From Candidatus Vampirococcus lugosii (lineage in GTDB: Bacteria > Patescibacteriota > Gracilibacteria > Absconditabacterales > Absconditicoccaceae): a DNA stretch of 15,583 bases. The DNA is taken from the NCBI RefSeq assembly GCF_018420025.1, contig NZ_JAEDAM010000019.1:1-15583 (forward strand), in the 5' to 3' direction. Positions 1,910 to 15,583 of the stretch are shown here, one piece after another. A model generated the notes under the pieces. The model saw only the letters and a list, made by a program, of their open reading frames with translations, did no database searches and was not told the origin of the DNA. How positions within the stretch are numbered: position 1 is the stretch's first letter; every line of letters begins with the position of its first letter. Position numbers and translations under genes: made by a program.

Positions 1910-2035
1910 TTAACGACAAATTGATTGAAAAGCTCTAACTGATGTACATTTATTTTCTTCAGAAATAATATGTAATGAATACGATAAAAAAGATAACAAC
2001 AATATTAATGTAATTATAATAGATAATTTTTGCAT
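1910..2035 (-). CDS. Small hydrophobic peptide, 41 aa (MQKLSIIITLILLLSFLSYSLHIISEENKCTSVRAFQSICR), translationally coupled to the upstream redox gene
   Basis: Its ATG (2035-2033) overlaps the upstream TAA (2037-2035) as TAATG. It has an N-terminal signal/TM-like segment and two Cys in the tail. The ORF is short, so support is weak. Confidence 0.3.
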   Translation of the reverse strand: MQKLSIIITLILLLSFLSYSLHIISEENKCTSVRAFQSICR

Positions 2036-3648
2036 TATTCAAATTTTTCATAATAAATATTTTCATATCACATTTTAATTAATTTTTCTTTTGATTCTAT
2101 TACTAATCAAGGATTTCAACATATGTAAAATTCTATTTCTTTATCATATTTGAAATTTTCAACATTAATTCTTCAATAATTATATATATTTATATTTTCT
2201 TTTGATAAATAAATATTGATTTCCAAATTTTCTATTTTTTTCAATTCATCTAAATAAAATAAATCATTTTGATTAGCTACTCAAAAGTGCAAATATTTTT
2301 TACAGTTTTTAATATTTGGATTATTGATCATAGAATATATAGGTGCCAAACCCGTTCAAGTTGCCAAAAAAACTTTTGATTTATTATTAATTTTTAATTT
2401 AAATTCACCAAAAATTCAAGCAATTTTTAAATTATCTCATTTATTTAATTTTGGAAATAATTTACTAGCTCTACCATTTGCTTTAAGTTTTATAAAAAAA
2501 GTAAAATTTAATCAGCTTTTATCTGCTATACTATACTGTCTTATAAATTCTCAATCAAAATCTTCAAGCACAAATTTAATAAATTGTCAATCAAAATATT
2601 CCAAATTAGAATTTGATTTTATAACTAATTTAATTACATCTTTAGTAAGATAATGAATTTCTGCTATTTCAACTTTTTTATAATTTTGTTTTTCTTCATA
2701 ATAAGGGATAAAATCTTTTTTGCTAACTCAACATAAAGGACAAACCCAATCATTTGGAATGTCTTCAAATTTAGTTCAAGGAAGTAAACCTCAATCTGGA
2801 TCTCCTTTATTTTCATCATAAATATATCAACAAACTATACATATATATTTAGTAGTTTTTCAAGCTTTAATATTTTTGTATACAGAATTTTTTTTGAAAA
2901 AAACAATAGTTCTAAAAATAATAACACTTGAAAACAAAATCATATAAAATAAATCAATCCTACTAGCAAAAGCTATATGAATCATACTCAATAAAAATAA
3001 TGGATACACCATATAATGAATTCATTTCCAAATAGAACCTAGAATTTTTTGAGAAAAATTATTTGAACTTATTCATAAAATTAACATTATAAATCAAGCA
3101 ATAAGTCAAGTTAATGCATCCATTCTATTTTTAATATTTTTGAATATATACTCCAATAAACTTGAATCTCAAAAATGATAATATCTTTCAAGTTCAATAT
3201 AATTTAACAAATGAATCATAAAAAATAAAAATGATAATATTCCAAATATTTTTCTAATAAATATTAATTTACTATAATATTTATCACTAACAAAATAAGA
3301 TAATGGATTAATCAATAGTGCCATAGACAAATAAAAAAAAGCTATTTTACCTGAAATTCTTAATATACTATTATCATAAGATTGCATAGTATTTGCAAAA
3401 AAATATCATAATATTATTCAAGGAATTAATAAAATTATTAAACTTATAGAAAATATAGAAAAATTTTTTAAAGATTTTTTTTCTTTAAAGAAAAGCAAGA
3501 AAAAAACAGAAAAAATTATATACACTAATATTGTATACCAAAAAAATTGATTTAAATAAAAAATATTTTCCAAATCTAATTTCAAAAAAGAAATAATTAA
3601 AGGTAATTGAAAAATTGACTGTATTAATAATAATATATATTTTTTCAT
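2035..3648 (-). CDS. Three-module membrane oxidoreductase, 537 aa: ferric-reductase/NOX-type haem TM domain, rubredoxin, and an FNR-like FAD/NAD(P)H-binding domain
   Basis: ATG 3648-3646, TAA 2037-2035. I checked the frame codon by codon and it contains many in-frame TGA. The N-terminus is a multi-TM region with His pairs (FFMIHLLNYIELERYYHF; WKGIHYMVYPLFLLSMIHIAF, an H-x12-H spacing). The centre is a rubredoxin, [46 protein letters not shown]. The C-terminus carries the FNR motifs RQYSIA, GRASKLF, ATGTGLAP and YICGNPGL. Confidence 0.9.
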
Positions 3649-4204: not shown

Positions 4205-6628
4205 ATGTTAATTTTTTTTATTATATTATCTATATTGTTTTTATTTTTTTTCTTTTTGATAAAATATTTAATTTTTCATATGAAGAAAAAAAATATACTA
4301 AAAAAAGCAGATGATATTAGATTTATTCAAGTAAAAATTTCTAGTAATAATTCTGAATGAACTGATCAAACTTCTTCTATGAAACAAAATATTGAAATAA
4401 TGAATCAATTGTACAAAAATTTGTGATCAGTTTATTCTGGAGATTATATGAGTACTAAGTTTGGTCAAAATTTCATAGTATTAGAAATGATTGTAGAAAA
4501 AGAAATGATAAATTATATAATGTGAATTCCTCAAGATTATGTTGAATCATTTGAAAAATTAATTTCATCATTTTATCCTTGATCTGTAGTAGATAAAATT
4601 TCACAAAATAAAATATTAAATGCATGAAATTGTGTTTCTGCTTGAGATATAGTTCTTTCCAAGTCTGATACTTTACCGATCAAAATTTATGATGATTTTG
4701 AAGCTGATCCTATAGATAGTATTTTATCTTCATTTTCAAAAACTAATTGGGATGAAAAATTAATTTTACAATTTGTAATAAGTCCATTATCCGATTGAGA
4801 ACAATCTAATTTTTCAAAAGCAGTAGAAGCTTGTAAGACAAGTAAAAAAAAGTCAATTTTTTGATTAATTAAAAAAATATTTGATTTTAATTCTGATGAA
4901 TGAGAATCAAAGTGAGAAGAAAAAAGTAAATATACATCTTCACAAACACAAGATATAGATAAAAAATGAGAATGAGAATTTTTTAATGTAAAGATTAGAA
5001 CATTAGCAATAAGTCCTGATCAAAATAGAGCAGATAAATTTTTGAGAGATATTCAAAGATCTTTAAGTCAATATAATTATGCATGATTAAATAAATTATC
5101 TGTAAAAAAACCAAAAAATTTAGATGATTTTTTATATAATTTTATTTATAAATCTCCTATTAGTTTACAAACTAATATAAGAAATATTCTCAAAACAGAA
5201 AAAGGTCATATATTTAGTATCAAAGAACTTTCTTCTCTTTATCATTTTCCTCATTCCAAATTTAATAAAAATCCAAGAATTAGATGGCAAAATTTTAAAA
5301 TAGTTCCAGCACCTGATACTATTCCTTCTGATTGATTATATATATGAAATAATTTATATTCTTGAGTTAATAAGAAAATTAGAGTAAAACCGGAAGATAG
5401 ATTTAGACATTTTTATTGTATTGGTCAAACTGGTACTGGTAAATCAACAATGCTTACTGTACAAGCAAAAGATGATTTAATTAATTGAAGATGATTTTGT
5501 ATGATAGATCCTCATGGGGATTTATGTGAAAGTCTTTTATGATATTTTCCCAAAGAAAGAATTAATGATCTTATTTATTTTGATGCAGCAGATTTTCAAA
5601 ATCCTATATGATTAAATGCTTTTGAAGCAGAAAATGAAGAACAAAAAGATGTAGTTGTAAGTGATTTGGTAGATATGTTTGTTAATCTTTATTGACATGA
5701 AATTTTTGGTCCTAGAATTCAAGATTATTTTAGAAATGGTGCATTAACACTTATGGATCAACCTGATTGATGAACTATGGTAGAGATTGTAAGACTTTTT
5801 GCAGATGAAGCTTTCCAAAAAACTAAACTTAAAAATGTAAAAAATCCAGTAGTAAGAAATTGGTGGGAAAAAACTTATGCAGCTATGTGAGATAGAGAAA
5901 AGGCTGAAGCTATTCCTTTTTTTCAAGCTAAATTTGGACAATTTACTACTACTCCTATTTTGAGAAATATAATATGACAAACTGAATCATCTTTCAAAAT
6001 GTCTCAAGTTATGCAAGAAAATAAAGTTTTGTTAGTAAATTTAAGTAAATGAAAATTGTGAGAAATAAATTCTGAACTTATCGGTAGAATTATTACTACA
6101 CAAGTAAAAGTTGCAGCATTACAAAGAGCATCTATGCCTGAAAATGAAAGAATTCCTTTTTATTTGTATATAGATGAATTTCAAAATTATGTAAGTCAAT
6201 CTATAGAAAGTATATTATCTGAAGCAAGAAAATATAAATTATGACTTACTGTAGCTCATCAATATATTGATCAACTTAGATCTCATTGATTATGATGAGA
6301 TTTGGATTTGTCAAAAGCTATTTTTGGTAATGTTTGAAGTATTATGGCATACAAAGTATGACCTGAAGATGCAGAATTTTTGGAAAGAGTTTTTGCACCA
6401 GAATTTAGCAAATCTGATTTGGTAAATATGGATAAATACAAATGAGTTATGAGATTATCTGTAGATAGTCAGCCTACTAAACCTTTTAGTATTGCAACTT
6501 TAAATCCATTTACTCCTTTTATAAATTCTCCTGAAAAAATTAAAGTAATAAAAGAAATTTCTTCTCTTAAATGGGGAAGAAAAAAAGAATTAGTAGAAAA
6601 AGAAATTTATTATAAAGTATGAGTTTAA
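4205..6628 (+). CDS. Membrane-anchored P-loop ATPase of the VirD4/TraG/TraD (type IV secretion coupling protein-like) family, 807 aa
   Basis: ATG 4205, TAA 6626-6628. There is an N-terminal TM segment (MLIFFIILSILFLFFFFLIKYLIF). Motifs are Walker A GQTGTGKST (5423-5449), MIDPHGDL, Walker B FYLYIDEFQNY, and ARKYKLGLTVAHQYIDQL, which is typical of the TraG/TraD C-terminal module. Confidence 0.88.
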
Positions 6629-6652
6629 TTTATTTTTAAAATTTTTTGATTA

Positions 6653-7318
6653 ATGAATTCAACTATTAATTTATCTGAATTATTCTTGGGAACTTGTTTA
6701 CATTTTTTTGTAAATAATTTTTTTGATGAACAAAATGAAAATGAATTATTAAGTGATAATGAAATTTTACAAAAAATAATTGATTGAAATAAAAATATTT
6801 TTTCTTTATTGTTGGATAGATATTCTGATAAAATATATAGATATATTTTTTACCATTTTAATTTTGATAAAAAAATTTCTCAAGATCTTACTCAAGAAGT
6901 TTTTCTTCATGTTTGGAACAAATTAAATAAATTTGATAATGAACAAAAATTTGAACCATGGCTTTATAGATTGGCACATAATTGCTGTATTGATTGGATT
7001 AGGAAAAATAAAAACAATTTAAGTGAAAGTTCTTTGGATAATATTTCGTATGATATATGAGAAGCATTTGATGAGAATGATCTTGAAAATAATTATAAAC
7101 AAAAATTAATTTATCAAATACTTGAAAAATTGGATCATAAATCTAAACATATAATTATATTATCATATTTTGAACAAAAATCTTATGATGAAATTGCATA
7201 TATTATTTGAATATCAAAATGAGCTGTATGAACTAGTCTTACTAGAGCAAGAAATAAATTGAAAGATATCATAAACTCGGATGATGTTTTGAAAGATGCA
7301 CTTAATTTTGATTTATAA
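6653..7318 (+). CDS. ECF-type sigma-70 family RNA polymerase sigma factor, 221 aa
   Basis: ATG 6653, TAA 7316-7318. Region 2 reads DLTQEVFLHVWNKLNKF...FEPWLYRLAHNCCIDWIRK. The region 4 HTH reads SYDEIAYIIGISKGAVGTSLTRARNKLK, with three Gly encoded by TGA. The gene starts 24 nt after the ATPase stop. Confidence 0.9.
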
Positions 7319-7346
7319 AATTTATTTTACTATAAAATATTTTAGT

Positions 7347-8063
7347 ATGAAAAAAAAGCTTGATTTATCAAAACTACTTTCAAAAGATAATTATCAAGAA
7401 ATAAAATTATCAAAAGATATAAAAGATAATATATTGAAGCAAACTATTTACAAAAAACATAGTTTTTTGAGTAAGTTTAAATTTTATGCATTACCAAGTT
7501 TTGCTATATTATTAATATTTGTTTTTTGATTTTATTTTTATGAAATAAATAAAAATAGTTTTGTAAATCAAGAAAATCAAAAAAACATAAATATTTGACT
7601 TAATAATATTGAAAATCAAGAAGTTTGAAATTTTGAAGAAAATGAAGAAATTCAAGAAAATAGTATACAAAATTTTGCAAAAAATAGAAGTCTAGATCAA
7701 ATTTCTGAAGATGTAGAAATGTTTGATACTGATTCAAGTAATGATATTGAACAAAATATAGGTACATATTCTATGGAAGAATCTAATACTTGATTTGGTA
7801 GAGCTTGATTTGGAGCTAAAACAGTAGATGTTGCAAGTAGTTGAGTTTATGAAAAAGATGATTTTTATAATAAATTAAAAAAATATTTTGTAGAAAATTA
7901 TATTAAATTTATAATTTTATCTATATTAATAATTATTAATATTTTGATTTTATTTTATACATACAAATATTTTTCATTAAACAAAAAAATGAAAATATTG
8001 TTAATTATTTCATTTTTTGTAGATATTTTATTGTTTTATTATGTAATATTTATTTTAATATAG
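7347..8063 (+). CDS. Membrane protein, 238 aa; putative anti-sigma factor by position
   Basis: ATG 7347, TAG 8061-8063. It starts 28 nt after the sigma stop. It has a ~50-aa N-terminal cytoplasmic segment, a TM segment (FYALPSFAILLIFVFGFYFY), an acidic low-complexity middle and two C-terminal TM segments. No ZAS motif is present, so the function is inferred from synteny only. Confidence 0.65.
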
Positions 8064-8090: not shown

Positions 8091-10847
8091 TTAAGAATTA
8101 AGTATTGAATCGGCTCTTTTGAAAACACTAAATAAAGTTCATATACAAATATCTTTTTTTCACATAGGAACTGGTAATGTAGCATTATTTTCTTTATGTT
8201 TCATAATTCTGTGAGAAGTAGAGTTTTGTCTATCTTCTTCAAAACCAAATTTTTTCAATATTAAAACCATATCATTTGAGGATAAATCTTTTCTGAAATA
8301 TTTCAAAATATTATCATAATCTACTGTATTATCTTGTAATTCATTAGAATTTTTTTCTATTATTTCATCTATTGAAAAATATTTATTAATTCCAAACAAG
8401 AAATTAAATAAATTATGAGATATATTTGATAAATTTTTATTAAGTAAATCTTGATTAATATTTTGTGAACAGAATAAATCTAGTAAAAAATTAATTTTTT
8501 CTTCATCAATAGATTTTATAAAAAAATCAATATTATACAAAGATAAAAAATTTTTAATTATTAAATTATGATTTATAATATTTGATAAAAAATTTATATT
8601 TTTTATATTGACAAAAAAGATATCTAATTTTTCCAAATTTAGATTATTCATAATATTTTCAAAATAATACCAAATTCATCAATTTGAATTATTTTCAGAA
8701 TCTATATATTTCAATAATCATCTATTTTCCAAAAATGATAATATTTGAAAAAAGTTATAATATCAATTATTAATATTATCCAAGTTTTCAATTATAGAAT
8801 GAGTATCAATTTCATAATTTTGTAATATATTATAAATATTTGATATAATAGAATTATTAGTATTATGATTATCAATTGAATATAAAAAATCACTTAAACA
8901 ATTACAATCATCAAAATCATAATTCAATATAAATTCTTCAAAAATGTATTTATTACTAAAATATTTATTTATAAGTAAATTCATATTAATATCATCTATA
9001 TTTGAACGAAAAGCTAACTTATAAAGAACTGAAAATAAAATACTGTAATCGTTTTCATTATTTTCAAAAAAGCTTTTCCAAGTATTAATTTTTATTGAAT
9101 TTTTTCAAAATTTATTTTGTATATATAAATAATCAGAAAGTTTATCTTTTTGGTATTTAAATATTTTGCTTCTATTTTGATATTCATTTTCTATATTGTA
9201 AGAATTTATAATTTTATCAAAATAATTATTAAATTTATTAATATTATTTATAGTTTTGAATATATCGTTTTTATTATTTTCATAATAATCTTTAATTTCA
9301 TATACATATTTATCAACAGTTTTTTTATAAGTTGGATCAAAAAATTCTTCAAAATTTTGTAATTTAGATATATTTCATTTAATTTTCACTATAGCTTGTA
9401 CAAAATTTATAACTTCAGTTTTATTTTGTAGTTCAAATATTTTTTCAACTAAATTTATGTTATATGATAATAAATTTTTGATAAAACATAAATCAGCATC
9501 CAATAATTTAACTATATTATTAAATCATAATCTATTATTAATATTTTTATGTATAAAATCTAAATCCAAAAAATACATAAAATCTAATATATAACTTCAA
9601 TATGAATTAAAAAAATCTTGATTTTGAATCAAAAAATCATAATCAAATTTTTCAAATAAATATTTTTTATCTTCATTTGAAAGTGAATTAAGAAATTGTA
9701 AATTTAATAAAACTTCATCTTTTTTTACAAGTTCTAAAATATCATCTTTATTTAATATATTTCATTTATTATACATTTTATAAAATGATTTAATTTGCAT
9801 ATTTGATATATTTAAATCATTCAAATTTCATATTGAAAATATAATTTCCAAAAATTTTTTATCAAAATTATTTTCATAAAAGAAAATAAAATTAGATTCT
9901 ATATAATCTTTATCATCAAAAAAGGATAATAAATTATTATAATATTTATTTTTATTAAATAAATCTTTTATATAAAAAGAAAATCTATCAAAAAATTCTT
10001 GAGATATATAAAAATCTCTAATTCTTTTCTTTTCATAATTTAAAACGGCAGTAGTAGGACAGTTTTTGTTCCAAGAAATTAAAAAATCACATATATCATT
10101 ATAAATTATTTTTGGTAAAGATAATTTTTTATTAAAAAGATTGTAAAGCTGATCTATTAAAATATTGTTTTTAGTAAAATCTATATTTGAAATAGCAAAA
10201 TAATCTATTATATATAATATATCAATATATTCATATATTCATATTTTATCATTATTTATAAGACATATATCTTTTAGTTCATCTGAAAAATTAGAATAAT
10301 TTCTTAAAAAATTTGGTTTTTTAAATTTGAAAATAAATTTATCATCATTATGTACATTTCTGTATGAAAATGCTAATGTTCTATTCAAAGAAGTTAACCA
10401 ATAACAAAAAGACAAAACAATATCAAATATTTCAGAATTTCATTTGTATCTTATAATATCTTCTTCATAATCAATATCAACTCCAATATTTTCCAAAAGA
10501 TTTAAAAAATCTTTATATTTATTAACAAAAAATTCATAATATTTATCATCAGATTTTAATATATTAAACATATCATTACATACTTCTATCAAATCATCTA
10601 CTCATCATACATTAACCATTTTAGTCATATATCAAAAATTTCTTATAGAATCAAAAAAAATTCAAATATTATTTAAATTTTTTGATTTTAAAAAAGAAAA
10701 AAATTCTTTAATATTTTCATTTTCAATAATATTTTCAACATCATCTCAAACAGCAAGAAACATTTCATGTGCTATTTTTTTTAAATTATCGTTATTATTC
10801 TTTATATTATTGATATTATTTACAGGAATACTATTTTCTAAGCCCAT
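8091..10847 (-). CDS. Large (918 aa) uncharacterised cytoplasmic protein with a complete C-terminal HicA (mRNA interferase toxin) domain
   Basis: ATG 10847-10845 with an in-frame TAA five codons upstream; stop TAA at 8093-8091. I checked every codon on the plus strand for tta/cta and found none. The track ORFs 8160..8651 and 8763..8984 are in-frame fragments of this CDS. The last ~60 aa (MVLILKKFGFEEDRQNSTSHRIMKHKENNATLPVPMGKKDICIGTLFSVFKRADSILNS) match the HicA consensus (...L.k.GF...rq.GSH......vtvP.h..kdl..gtl..ilkqag). Confidence 0.85.
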
Positions 10848-11088: not shown

Positions 11089-11346
11089 ATGGCGGATAAA
11101 GTTTTTTTTGGGAATGTGAAAGAGATGACAAATAATTATTGAACTATGTATAGTATATGAATAACAAAAGAAGATCTAGACAAACTTGTGTTTAATGAAA
11201 AATGATGGGCAAATATAAGTTTAAAAAAATCTAGTAAATGAAATTGGTATATGGAAATATATAATCCTCAAGATAATAATAATACACAAAAAACATCGCA
11301 AACTGAAGTAGTAAATGAAGAAGAGGATGAAGATTTACCTTTCTAA
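11089..11346 (+). CDS. Small (85 aa) beta-rich protein with an SSB-type acidic C-terminal tip (...EEEDEDLPF)
   Basis: ATG 11089, TAA 11344-11346. Sequence: MADKVFFGNVKEMTNNYGTMYSIGITKEDLDKLVFNEKGWANISLKKSSKGNWYMEIYNPQDNNNTQKTSQTEVVNEEEDEDLPF. It has four in-frame TGA codons. The tail matches the bacterial SSB C-terminal tip (D-D-D-I/L-P-F). Confidence 0.75.
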
Positions 11347-11450: not shown

Positions 11451-11455
11451 GTAAA

Positions 11456-11818
11456 TCCCTTGTAAGCTTCATATTTGGAGGCAGTCATGTTAAGTATTAG
11501 TCTAAATTCGGTTAATGCCAGAAACAAGGATTTTACTACATTTGTTTATGAGTATCCTTTGGATATTTCTATAGCAAGTATAGAGAAATTCTTGAAATTA
11601 AGGACATTTAGGAAAGTAGAAACTTGCTTTCTTTCAAATGAAGGCAAGCCTTTCTTTTCGGGTGAAAGGATTTTACTTGGCAATGATACAAGTGCAAGGA
11701 TACTAACAGCTATAACGGGAATTTATCCAAAATTAAGGGAGATTCCTATCGTGAAATCTAATCACTAGAATTTCTCATTTTTTCTTTTCTTCCTATGAAT
11801 TTCATAGGAAGTTTTTTT
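11456..11818 (+). ncRNA. Probable structured non-coding RNA of ~360 nt, class unresolved (RNase P RNA considered but not demonstrated)
   Basis: The segment is clearly more GC-rich than the flanking genes and has its own promoter and terminator. Long-range complementarity: 11456-11461/11735-11740, 11474-11479/11726-11731, 11504-11514/11713-11724 and 11551-11559/11696-11704 (9 bp). Local hairpins lie at 11565-11588, 11636-11657 and 11675-11693. The embedded 93-codon ORF has flat GC across codon positions (about 32/38/28 percent by my count), uses AGG for Arg and never uses TGA for Gly, unlike the neighbouring genes. Confidence 0.5.
11789..11818 (+). terminator. Rho-independent terminator
   Basis: Perfect inverted repeat cttcctatgaa (11789-11799) / ttcataggaag (11801-11811), followed by seven T (11812-11818). 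Confidence 0.85.
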
Positions 11819-11859
11819 ATAAAAAAAATATATTAATATTTAATTAATATATTGTCAAA

Positions 11860-11947
11860 CGGTGAGGATGGGATTCGAACCCATGGTACAAATAAATTGT
11901 ACACATGTACTCCAAACATGCGCTTTCGACCACTCAGCCACCTCACC
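11860..11947 (-). tRNA. tRNA-Ser (anticodon GGA), class II with a long variable arm; no encoded CCA
   Basis: The reverse complement is GGTGAGGTGGCTGAGTGGTCGAAAGCGCATGTTTGGAGTACATGTGTACAATTTATTTGTACCATGGGTTCGAATCCCATCCTCACCG. The acceptor stem is GGTGAGG/CCTCACC. The anticodon stem is CATGT/ACATG with loop TTGGAGT. The variable arm has a 6-bp stem. The T arm is ATGGG-TTCGAAT-CCCAT. The discriminator is G, followed by TTT. Confidence 0.95.
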
Positions 11948-12133
11948 ATCAACTTAATGTATAATAAAAATTTTACAAAATACAAGAAATAATTTAATAA
12001 AATCACAATTTAAAAAATGATTGTATAAATATGTAGAAATAAAAATTAAATAAATTTGTTGATTTTTGAAAAAAATTAAGTATATTATAAGAACTATAAT
12101 AAATTTATCATATAAATATTAAAAAAACAAATT

Positions 12134-14685: not shown

Positions 14686-15583
14686 ATGAAAACAAAAATA
14701 AAAAAAATATTTGGAGTGCTTTTTGTTGTTTTATTGCTTTTGATTTGATGAATTACTAAAGCAGATAAACATTTTGTTAGTTGTGATTTGGAGTTCAAAA
14801 TAGGAGATAATATAATATATGAAAATAATAATTCGCAGAAAGTTTTTAGATTTAATACTAAAGGTTCTTTGTTATTTTATACTGATCCAGCAAATATTTA
14901 TTTTGGTTTGGATAATTATACTGGGCTATGATATAATTCATTGTATGTAAATAGAAAATCTTGACAAGATGGGATTAGAGATGTTTCGCCTGAAATACAT
15001 AGATCATCTTTGCCAAATAATTGACTTGAATTTGTAAATACAAGTGGTGATAAGACAATATTATGGTGAGATGATGGTGCTTTAAATTCTAATAGATTTA
15101 TTGCTTATGATGGATTTCAAGCTGGTTGCTCTGATTCTGGTTGGAAAAATGAATTAACTAATAATTGGAATAGATATGATTATACAAATGATCCTGGGAC
15201 TTTTTATCCACAACCACTATGTTGAAATGAAAATGGTAAAGTTTATGCTTGGAATGAAACAAGTTGGGATACACAAGATTTTTGTACAGAAGGAACAGTA
15301 AATCCATCAAATCCAATTTTCCCTGATGAAGGAGAGACTAGGGCATGGACTTGTACCGCTCCTTCTCATAGTCCAGTAACTTGTAGTGCAAGGAGAGAGA
15401 CTGAATCACCTAATGATTGTACAGGTCCAGATTGAGCTATTATTGCTCATGGTGATAGTAGAACTTATTATAAAAATACTGTAGTAGATGGTGAAGAAGA
15501 TGATAATGCTTGTGTATTTGGTGAGTCCACCTTTCCTTGTATTATAGATGGAACAGGTGCAACTGGGGAAAATAATGTTTGTG
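14686..15583 (+). CDS. Secreted cysteine-rich protein, 3'-truncated by the window edge (299 codons visible)
   Basis: ATG 14686; I checked the frame codon by codon to the window end. The signal peptide is MKTKIKKIFGVLFVVLLLLIGGITKA. There are many Cys and W/N/D/T-rich segments (e.g. ETRAWTCTAPSHSPVTCSARRE). The gene is more GC-rich and uses GGN for Gly more than its neighbours do. Confidence 0.85.

What the first reader, a model, noticed from the sequence alone, without database searches (positions are those of the whole stretch)
8091..10847. 918-aa protein with a full HicA toxin domain at its C-terminus and no HicB in sight
HicA toxins are normally stand-alone proteins of about 60 aa encoded next to a HicB antitoxin. 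Here a complete HicA-like module (last 59 aa, 8091-8270, with the catalytic-position His in ...STSHR...) is read in one uninterrupted frame with ~860 aa of N/I/K/F/D-rich sequence. I cannot assign that upstream sequence to any family. It has no signal peptide or TM segment. No small antitoxin gene flanks it: the downstream neighbour is convergent and the upstream neighbour is divergent. One possibility is a fused sensor or autoinhibitory domain joined to an RNase effector, analogous to fused toxin-antitoxin defence proteins such as CapRel. Another is a very large cis-acting antitoxin. A third is internal initiation at Met 8270-8268, which would yield a canonical 59-aa HicA from inside the larger ORF. 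The standard-code track hid the last 23 residues of the domain, because the track ORF stops at a TGA (8160-8162).
Basis: partly seen in the sequence, partly recalled or inferred. Interest (0 to 1): 0.8.

Follow-up and report, generated by a model that had tools for sequence, protein, structure and literature searches.

The report
Giant HicA RNase fusion, predatory CPR
A real 918-residue protein of the predatory bacterium Vampirococcus lugosii carries an intact HicA ribonuclease "toxin" module at the end of a large, otherwise unknown helical region, with no antitoxin gene nearby; the same design recurs in one other predatory relative, but similar long HicA fusions have been described before and its function is untested.

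Summary
Read with TGA as glycine (code 25), 8091-10847(-) is one 918-codon ORF. Its last ~60 residues are a bona fide HicA domain: Pfam 42.7 bits against a cut-off of 27, an a-b-b-b-a model matching solved HicA structures, and an invariant catalytic His (H879). The window equals a whole 15.6-kb contig of Candidatus Vampirococcus lugosii, where NCBI already names the protein "HicA family toxin".

An exhaustive HMMER search of 1.84 billion representatives with residues 1-844 found one relative. It is a 930-aa protein of Ca. Absconditicoccus praedator, collinear end to end (27% identity, HicA part 44%). The fusion is therefore conserved and is not an assembly artefact. Neither locus has a hicB, and the two share no neighbour.

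The N-terminal region is modelled all-helical at low confidence. It has no TM segment, signal peptide, repeats, NTPase motifs or family hits.

My best reading is a single-chain HicA RNase whose N-terminal region replaces HicB as a cis regulator or sensor. This is inference, at about 0.4. A prey-directed effector and a lineage-specific RNA-metabolism role remain open.

Fused HicA proteins are already catalogued (Gerdes 2024 classes 13 and 14; HicA-tipped polymorphic toxins). This is a new variant of a known kind, of moderate interest.

The parts
8091..10847 (-). Complete gene: 918 codons plus a TAA stop, with 19 TGA codons read as Gly. Identical to NCBI MBS8121847.1 / WP_213348771.1 of Ca. Vampirococcus lugosii.
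   Evidence: P(no TAA/TAG by chance) 1.7e-39; the start 'MGL' is shared with the orthologue
8358..10847 (-). N-terminal orphan region, about aa 1-830. Modelled as some 45 short helices at low confidence. No TM segment, signal peptide, repeats, Walker motifs or family hits. 15.4% G+C.
   Evidence: the only homologue is P0002
9471..9569 (-). Best-conserved block of the N-terminal region, aa 427-459: LDLDFIHKNINNRLGFNNIVKLL..DADLCFIKNL. Sliding-window identity here is 0.32-0.38, against about 0.2 elsewhere.
8310..8363 (-). Polar, poorly conserved linker, about aa 829-846, modelled mostly as coil in both proteins.
8298..8312 (-). Conserved 'NILxY' motif (aa 846-850) just upstream of the canonical HicA N-terminus. 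It is a family-specific extension.
8112..8276 (-). HicA domain (PF07927), aa 858-912, a-b-b-b-a. The full C-terminal module runs to aa 918 (8094).
8211..8213 (-). Codon CAC for His879. It aligns with the catalytic His of canonical HicA.
8160..8162 (-). TGA codon for Gly896 in 'VPMGK'. It truncates the ORF under the standard code. Gly replaces the His of the canonical 'PxH' motif in both fused proteins.
8268..8270 (-). It is not supported.

Best explanation
The gene encodes a cytoplasmic, single-chain HicA-type endoribonuclease. A catalytically competent HicA domain (His879) is tethered by a polar linker of about 20 residues to an all-helical N-terminal region of about 830 residues. That region is found only in the two described predatory Absconditabacteria.

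I infer that the N-terminal region takes over the role HicB plays in two-gene systems. It would keep the RNase inactive in cis and release it in response to a signal such as phage infection, stress or proteolysis. On this reading the gene is a one-gene toxin/regulator module of the type Gerdes calls fused hicBA.

Shown: the ORF, the genetic code, HicA domain integrity, conservation of the fusion in a second genus, and the absence of an adjacent or conserved partner gene. Inferred: RNase activity, autoinhibition, and the nature of the trigger.
For: The HicA domain is intact, with an invariant catalytic His and the HicA fold.

The fusion is collinear over its full length in Ca. A. praedator and is reproduced in independent assemblies.

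There is no HicB in six frames of either locus, and no neighbour is shared within +-10 kb. An active RNase therefore needs some other restraint.

The three canonical HicAs recovered as closest relatives (36-43% identity) are all hicBA pairs, with a small HicB directly upstream and overlapping. That is the position now occupied by the N-terminal region.

The N-terminal region diverges faster than HicA (about 20-30% versus 42-48% identity) and has drifted to lower G+C (15.4% versus 25.0%; 23.8% versus 35.4% in the orthologue). This pattern is typical of regulator or sensor parts evolving faster than toxin parts.

There is no signal peptide or TM segment.

Precedent exists: monocistronic HicA fusions with helical N-terminal regions, and CapRel/EzeT-type cis regulation (PMC10865869).
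Against: There is no direct evidence for autoinhibition. AF2 models of both proteins are unusable outside the HicA domain (pLDDT 34-36).

The N-terminal region shows no similarity to HicB or to any sensor or defence family (PADLOC none).

Neither locus looks like a defence island. The neighbours are housekeeping, pilus, sigma-factor and redox genes.

A hicB elsewhere in either genome could not be excluded.

The Gly of the canonical 'GSH' motif is not in register (STSH), and the 'PxH' His is Gly. Activity could therefore be altered.
Confidence: 0.4

Rival explanations
1. Predation effector. The protein is exported by an unrecognised route into the phototrophic prey. There the C-terminal HicA RNase degrades prey RNA, shutting the prey down and/or supplying nucleotides. 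The N-terminal region would serve delivery, as in polymorphic toxins that carry their toxin domain at the C-terminus.
For: The family was found only in the two described epibiotic predators among 1.84 billion representatives (PMC12428579). The toxin domain is C-terminal behind a flexible linker. HicA is documented as the C-terminal toxin of S8-PTS and RHS polymorphic toxins (PMC9424270). V. lugosii depends on its host for nucleotides (PMC8080830).
Against: There is no signal peptide or TM segment, and no known trafficking domain. There is no downstream immunity gene and no conserved neighbour. The C-terminal domain is the most conserved part, whereas polymorphic toxins vary at the tip. The two-genome distribution may simply reflect common ancestry.
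Confidence: 0.2
2. Lineage-specific RNA-metabolism protein. The HicA/dsRBD-like domain acts as an RNA-binding or substrate-specific RNase module on a large scaffold, for example in mRNA turnover in a reduced genome. It is not a toxin, so no antitoxin is needed.
For: The gene is chromosomal and single-copy, sits in housekeeping surroundings in both genomes, and has no mobile-element genes nearby. The ORF has been kept open over 918 AT-rich codons in two genera. The 'GSH' and 'PxH' motifs deviate from canonical forms.
Against: It was found in only two genomes, so it is not a core function. The catalytic His and overall HicA profile are retained at about 44% identity to phage and TA HicAs. No RNA-degradosome-like motif or partner was detected.
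Confidence: 0.15
3. Two products from one ORF. Internal initiation near the domain boundary (Met860) yields a free HicA of about 59 aa, and the long protein or its N-terminal part acts as antitoxin.
For: Both proteins have a Met within a few residues of the canonical HicA N-terminus. 'MGSREVEALLKRFGF' in A. praedator resembles a canonical HicA start.
Against: The two Mets are not at aligned positions. No Shine-Dalgarno motif is seen at any window gene, so no start signal can be scored. The orthologue's Met is preceded by C-rich sequence, unlike the AT-rich leaders of real starts. A start at Met860 would clip helix 1. Promoter-like hits in the gene are fewer than in shuffles (40 versus 51.6).
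Confidence: 0.05
4. Inactive relic. The HicA domain is a fossil of a former hicBA pair that was captured by an upstream gene and no longer cleaves RNA.
For: There is no antitoxin. 'PxH' has become 'PMG' and the 'GSH' loop is lengthened.
Against: The HicA part is the best-conserved segment between genera (42-48% identity). It retains the catalytic His and higher G+C than the rest of the gene, which argues for continued selection on the domain.
Confidence: 0.1

Closest known systems
Gerdes 2024 Class 13 'fused hicBA' proteins (PMC10865869)
   Same: Monocistronic. A predominantly alpha-helical N-terminal region is followed by a canonical C-terminal HicA domain. There is no separate hicB, and regulation is unknown.
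   Different: Class 13 proteins are 340-440 aa, whereas this one is 918 aa. The N-terminal region here has no detectable homologue other than the A. praedator protein in an exhaustive search. Class 13 sequences could not be retrieved for a direct comparison.
Gerdes 2024 Class 14 SMC-HicA fusions (PMC10865869)
   Same: A large, mostly helical protein with HicA at the extreme C-terminus, in a single gene.
   Different: No Walker A, Walker B or SMC signature motif. No SMC or any other Pfam hit in the N-terminal region. Modelled helices are mostly short rather than long coiled coils.
Polymorphic toxins with a C-terminal HicA domain (S8-PTS BetaH toxins, one RHS toxin; PMC9424270)
   Same: The HicA RNase is the C-terminal module of a long protein and has closest relatives among TA HicAs.
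   Different: No signal peptide, BetaH, RHS or other trafficking domain. No downstream immunity gene. The tip is conserved rather than polymorphic.
Canonical type II hicBA modules (Gerdes class 2), e.g. loci L002-L004
   Same: The HicA domain is 36-43% identical by tblastn, shares the 'ILKKFGFE' helix and the catalytic His, and the partner is encoded directly upstream.
   Different: In those loci a separate 59-81 aa HicB overlaps the hicA start. Here the upstream sequence is about 857 residues in the same polypeptide, with no HicB similarity.
CapRel(SJ46) / EzeT single-chain toxin-antitoxin proteins
   Same: They offer a proposed working analogy: toxin and its regulator in one chain, with no partner gene.
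   Different: The toxin folds are unrelated. Domain order and size differ. No experimental or structural evidence for autoinhibition exists here. This is an analogy only.

Membership tests
HicA toxin domain (PF07927) | Profile match above the curated gathering score, covering the whole domain | tested here: met
   42.7 bits against a cut-off of 27, E 5.9e-11, profile 2-56/58. The orthologue scores 55.3 bits.
HicA toxin domain (PF07927) | dsRBD-like a-b-b-b-a fold | tested here: met
   The AF2 model has H857-866, E869-875, E879-884, E890-894 and H902-917, at pLDDT 50-71. The Foldseek top five are all HicA, with TM 0.65-0.85.
HicA toxin domain (PF07927) | Conserved catalytic His in the loop before strand 1 | tested here: met
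   His879 aligns with the His of 1whz, 9svk and 4p78. It is invariant in alignment A4. The flanking motif is 'STSH' rather than 'GSH'.
HicA toxin domain (PF07927) | Ribosome-independent RNase activity / toxicity | not testable with these tools
   Needs expression of a recoded gene and in vitro cleavage assays.
Type II HicAB/HicBA toxin-antitoxin module | Adjacent, co-oriented hicB antitoxin gene | tested here: not met
   The neighbours are convergent and divergent. No neighbour has a HicB Pfam family. A HicB HMM finds nothing in six frames of either locus.
Type II HicAB/HicBA toxin-antitoxin module | Small stand-alone toxin (about 60-100 aa) | tested here: not met
   The protein is 918 aa in a single ORF, and the orthologue is 930 aa.
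Type II HicAB/HicBA toxin-antitoxin module | hicB anywhere else in the genome | not testable with these tools
   Only the 15.6-kb contig and 22.8 kb of A. praedator could be read.
Fused hicBA with a HicB-fold N-terminal domain (Gerdes class 12) | N-terminal domain with the HicB (partial RNase H / DUF1902) fold | tested here: not met
   No hit with a HicB HMM with filters off. No Pfam HicB family. The region is modelled all-helical.
Fused hicBA with a helical N-terminal region (Gerdes class 13) | 340-440 aa protein, helical N-terminal region plus C-terminal HicA, with family-level homology | tested here: inconclusive
   The architecture type is shared, but the protein is twice that size. An exhaustive search with the N-terminal region found only P0002.
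SMC-HicA (Gerdes class 14) | SMC ATPase head (Walker A, Walker B, signature motif) and long coiled coils | tested here: not met
   No such motifs in either protein. No SMC Pfam hit at E<=10.
Polymorphic toxin system | N-terminal secretion/trafficking domain and a downstream immunity gene | tested here: not met
   No signal peptide or TM segment. No trafficking domain. The downstream gene is convergent and not conserved.
Known anti-phage defence systems (PADLOC) | Match to a defence-system protein model | tested here: not met
   0 families at E<=1.

The most novel reading that the evidence does not exclude
The 830-residue orphan region is a new kind of delivery or sensing module specific to 'vampire' Absconditabacteria. 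On this reading the protein is a predation weapon: a HicA RNase injected into, or activated on contact with, the phototrophic prey to shut down and digest its RNA. That would be the first molecular effector of CPR predation, and a repurposing of a TA toxin for feeding.
Probability: 0.15. Interest if true: 0.8.

Novelty: new variant of a known kind. Interest (0 to 1): 0.45.

Why it matters
HicA is usually studied as a 60-aa toxin held in check by HicB. Here an intact HicA has been kept for a long evolutionary time at the end of a large orphan protein, in two reduced-genome, obligately predatory CPR bacteria that have no adjacent antitoxin.

If the N-terminal region is a cis regulator or sensor, it adds a very large and entirely new regulatory domain to the catalogue of single-chain toxin systems. 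It would also show that such systems persist in CPR genomes of about 1.1 Mb. If instead the protein is an effector against prey, it would give a first molecular handle on how these epibionts exploit their hosts.

In either case it is a concrete two-member family with a clear experimental test: recoded expression with and without H879A, and with and without the N-terminal region. The limits are that the domain annotation already exists in NCBI, comparable fusions are published, and nothing about function could be established here.

Tried and rejected
- Word-index protein searches returned only the query itself for P0001 and P0002, and nothing for the HicA alignment. The first two were saturated by low-complexity words.
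- Pattern scans for further family members found none. I ran both N-terminal and HicA-junction patterns against genome contigs, metagenome contigs and viral contigs. The genome collection did not return even V. lugosii or A. praedator, so it apparently holds neither genome. The scan with the HicA alignment returned only canonical hicBA loci.
- tblastn of the orthologue's N-terminal region against 50,697 phage records gave no match.
- AF2 with the two-sequence alignment, in both orders, gave pLDDT 34.5 and 36.0. I therefore attempted no fold search on the N-terminal region beyond one Foldseek run, which matched only HicA.
- Internal repeats are absent by chunked BLASTP self-comparison and chunked hhalign, where all probabilities were below 7%.
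- SMC or other NTPase: rejected, because no Walker or signature motifs are present.
- HicB-like segment upstream of HicA: rejected.
- Hidden antitoxin on the opposite strand: the three antisense ORFs of 87-115 residues lack usable Met starts and look like mirror-frame artefacts.
- Synteny between the two loci: none.
- Promoter scan: fewer hits than in shuffles. No terminators were found.
- The V. lugosii paper and its supplements do not mention HicA. The A. praedator paper is not held. No paper links HicA with Absconditabacteria.
Full report
**What the sequence is**

The window is very AT-rich (14-31% G+C). Under table 11 the region 8091-10847(-) is broken by 19 stops. All 19 are TGA, and the frame ends in TAA.

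TGA is a sense codon here, and it encodes Gly. Neighbouring genes need Gly at those positions: the Walker A motif of an ATPase, TPR 'NKGLAL' turns, GreA and DHFR. Within the protein itself, TGA codons align to GGN-encoded Gly in the orthologue at three positions, and the orthologue's TGA at residue 2 aligns to GGC here.

At the local composition, the chance of 918 codons with no TAA or TAG is about 1.7e-39. The ORF is real.

**Identity of the window**

The translated protein is 100% identical to NCBI MBS8121847.1 / WP_213348771.1. That entry is named 'type II toxin-antitoxin system HicA family toxin' of Candidatus Vampirococcus lugosii and sits on a 15,583-bp contig, which is the whole window.

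V. lugosii is an epibiotic predatory member of the Absconditabacteria (PMC8080830). That paper reports an AbiE toxin-antitoxin system. It does not mention HicA in the text or in the supplements held.

**The HicA module**

- PF07927 matches aa 858-912 over essentially the whole profile, at 42.7 bits against a gathering score of 27. PHROG 353 'toxin' matches as well.
- A profile of the two family members hits solved HicA structures 4c26, 6g26, 1whz, 9svk and 4p78. His879 aligns to the active-site His in 1whz, 9svk and 4p78.
- The AF2 model is only moderately confident in this segment (pLDDT 50-71) but has the a-b-b-b-a topology. Its five best Foldseek PDB matches are all HicA, with TM up to 0.85 and rmsd 1.5-2.0 A for the top three.
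- The domain is about 44% identical to stand-alone HicAs of Streptococcus phages.
- Two deviations are shared by both family members. The loop reads (G/N)STSH instead of GSH. The His of the common 'PxH' motif is Gly ('VPMGK').

**The N-terminal region (about 857 residues)**

It has no Pfam, NCBIfam, PADLOC or PDB sequence hit, even at permissive thresholds. The only PHROG hit outside the HicA domain is a weak 26-residue stretch at E 0.63.

It also lacks the following:
- a hydrophobic segment (maximum 19-residue hydropathy 1.2) and significant self-similarity;
- repeats by chunked hhalign;
- Walker A, Walker B or SMC signature motifs.

Two AF2 runs gave pLDDT 34.5 and 36.0. They agree only that the region is essentially all-helical, mostly short helices, and is followed by a coil linker. 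No fold assignment is justified.

**Relatives**

An exhaustive phmmer search with aa 1-844 against 1.84 billion cluster representatives found exactly one other protein, P0002. P0002 is 930 aa and is annotated as a HicA family toxin of Candidatus Absconditicoccus praedator, from a complete 1.13-Mb genome.

The two proteins align collinearly from the shared 'MGL' start to the C-terminus at 27% identity. Sliding-window identity is about 0.16-0.38 in the N-terminal region, best in aa 419-465. It rises to 0.42-0.48 across the HicA module.

P0002 also scores for PF07927, at 55.3 bits. It carries 15 in-frame TGA codons.

Logan re-assemblies of the raw runs contain the same 918- and 930-aa ORFs. They differ only in reading TGA as Trp.

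The fusion is therefore genuine and conserved between two genera. None of them is met.

Pattern scans of genome, metagenome and viral contig collections, and tblastn against phage genomes, found no further members. A review describes both carriers as epibiotic CPR predators (PMC12428579).

**Context**

In the window, the downstream gene is convergent. It is a membrane protein following an ECF sigma factor. The upstream gene is divergent and encodes an 85-aa protein of unknown function.

In A. praedator the flanks are unrelated. On one side lie FtsH, a polysaccharide synthase and a divergent 183-aa unknown. On the other lie a PilT-like ATPase and a cNMP-binding protein.

BLASTP finds nothing shared within +-10 kb except the gene itself. 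A HicB HMM finds nothing in six-frame, code-25 translations of either locus.

By contrast, the three canonical HicAs that share the 'ILKKFGFE' helix all have a small HicB directly upstream, overlapping the hicA start. The orphan region thus occupies the position of the antitoxin in hicBA-type modules. It shows no HicB similarity.

**How it most likely works**

The intact catalytic domain is held behind a flexible linker. There is no partner gene and no export signal. The N-terminal region evolves faster and is more AT-drifted than the HicA part (G+C 15.4% versus 25.0% here; 23.8% versus 35.4% in the orthologue).

Together these fit best with a cytoplasmic single-chain RNase whose N-terminal region restrains or gates HicA in cis. 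I give this about 0.4. Autoinhibition and the trigger are inferences, not observations.

The rivals are:
- a prey-directed effector (0.2), favoured by the restriction to two predators and the C-terminal toxin position, but lacking any secretion or immunity signature;
- a lineage-specific RNA-metabolism role (0.15);
- an inactive relic (0.1);
- internal initiation (0.05).

For internal initiation, the Mets near the domain boundary are not aligned between the two proteins. No Shine-Dalgarno signal is seen at any window gene. The orthologue's Met sits in C-rich sequence, unlike real starts.

**Comparison with what is known**

Gerdes (mBio 2024, PMC10865869) classified 14 HicA contexts. Among them:
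- Class 12 and 13 are monocistronic 'fused hicBA' proteins. Class 13 members are 340-440 aa with a helical N-terminal region.
- Class 14 is large SMC-HicA fusions.

That paper suggested CapRel-like cis regulation and a defence role.

Separately, HicA occurs as the C-terminal toxin of S8-type and RHS polymorphic toxins (PMC9424270).

The present protein shares the general design but fits none of these groups. It is twice the size of Class 13, has no SMC motifs, and has neither a trafficking domain nor an immunity gene. Its N-terminal region is an orphan. I could not retrieve Class 13 or 14 sequences for a direct test, because the relevant supplement sheets are truncated.

**Verdict**

The finding is a new variant of a known kind, restricted as far as can be seen to two predatory Absconditabacteria. 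Interest is moderate (0.45). The effector reading would be much more interesting, but it has little direct support.

Noticed in passing
window 11455-11822 (+): A stretch of about 365 nt with raised G+C lies between the 85-aa gene and the tRNA. It has a TTGACA-17-TATAAA-like promoter upstream and a hairpin plus U-run at its end. It folds far better than shuffles (MFE -100.6 versus -73.5+-4.9 kcal/mol, z -5.5). No Rfam family matches at E<=10 beyond noise, and ARAGORN finds no tmRNA. From memory, GGAGGCAGUC, GGGUGAAAGG and ACAGCUAUAACGGGAAUUUAU resemble RNase P RNA conserved regions CR-I, CR-II and CR-V, and they occur in the right order. It may be a reduced RNase P RNA that current models miss. 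The overlapping table-11 ORF 11475-11768 is probably spurious.
   Followed up: partly
window 11089-11346 (+): An 85-aa protein, divergent from the HicA-fusion gene, ends in an SSB-like acidic tip (...EEEDEDLPF). It has no Pfam hit above noise and no counterpart next to the A. praedator gene.
   Followed up: partly
window 2035-3648 (-): A single 537-aa protein combines a ferric-reductase-like transmembrane domain, a rubredoxin domain and FAD/NAD-binding oxidoreductase domains. This is an unusual all-in-one membrane electron-transfer chain for a CPR bacterium.
   Followed up: no
window 4205-8063 (+): A membrane-anchored VirD4/TraG/HerA-like ATPase, with Pfam hits just below threshold, is followed directly by an ECF sigma factor. 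Next comes a 260-aa protein with hydrophobic segments and no family hit, possibly an anti-sigma factor, whose start overlaps the sigma gene's end.
   Followed up: no
window 14686-15583 (+), runs off the contig end: A Cys-, Gly- and Trp-rich protein with an N-terminal hydrophobic, signal-like segment has the highest G+C in the window (31%) and no Pfam hit. It may be a surface protein.
   Followed up: no
window 11859-11948 (-): tRNA-Ser(GGA), 90 nt, is the only Rfam/ARAGORN gene in the window.
   Followed up: yes
window 8091-10847 versus L001 10001-12793: Within both orthologues the HicA-coding end is about 10 points richer in G+C than the rest of the gene (25.0% versus 15.4%; 35.4% versus 23.8%). 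The V. lugosii gene is the most AT-rich in its contig. This is consistent with weak amino-acid constraint on the orphan region.
   Followed up: yes
Genome-contig collection: Scans with patterns that occur in the V. lugosii and A. praedator genes did not return either genome. These two genomes appear to be absent from that collection, so negative results from it say little about Absconditabacteria.
   Followed up: partly
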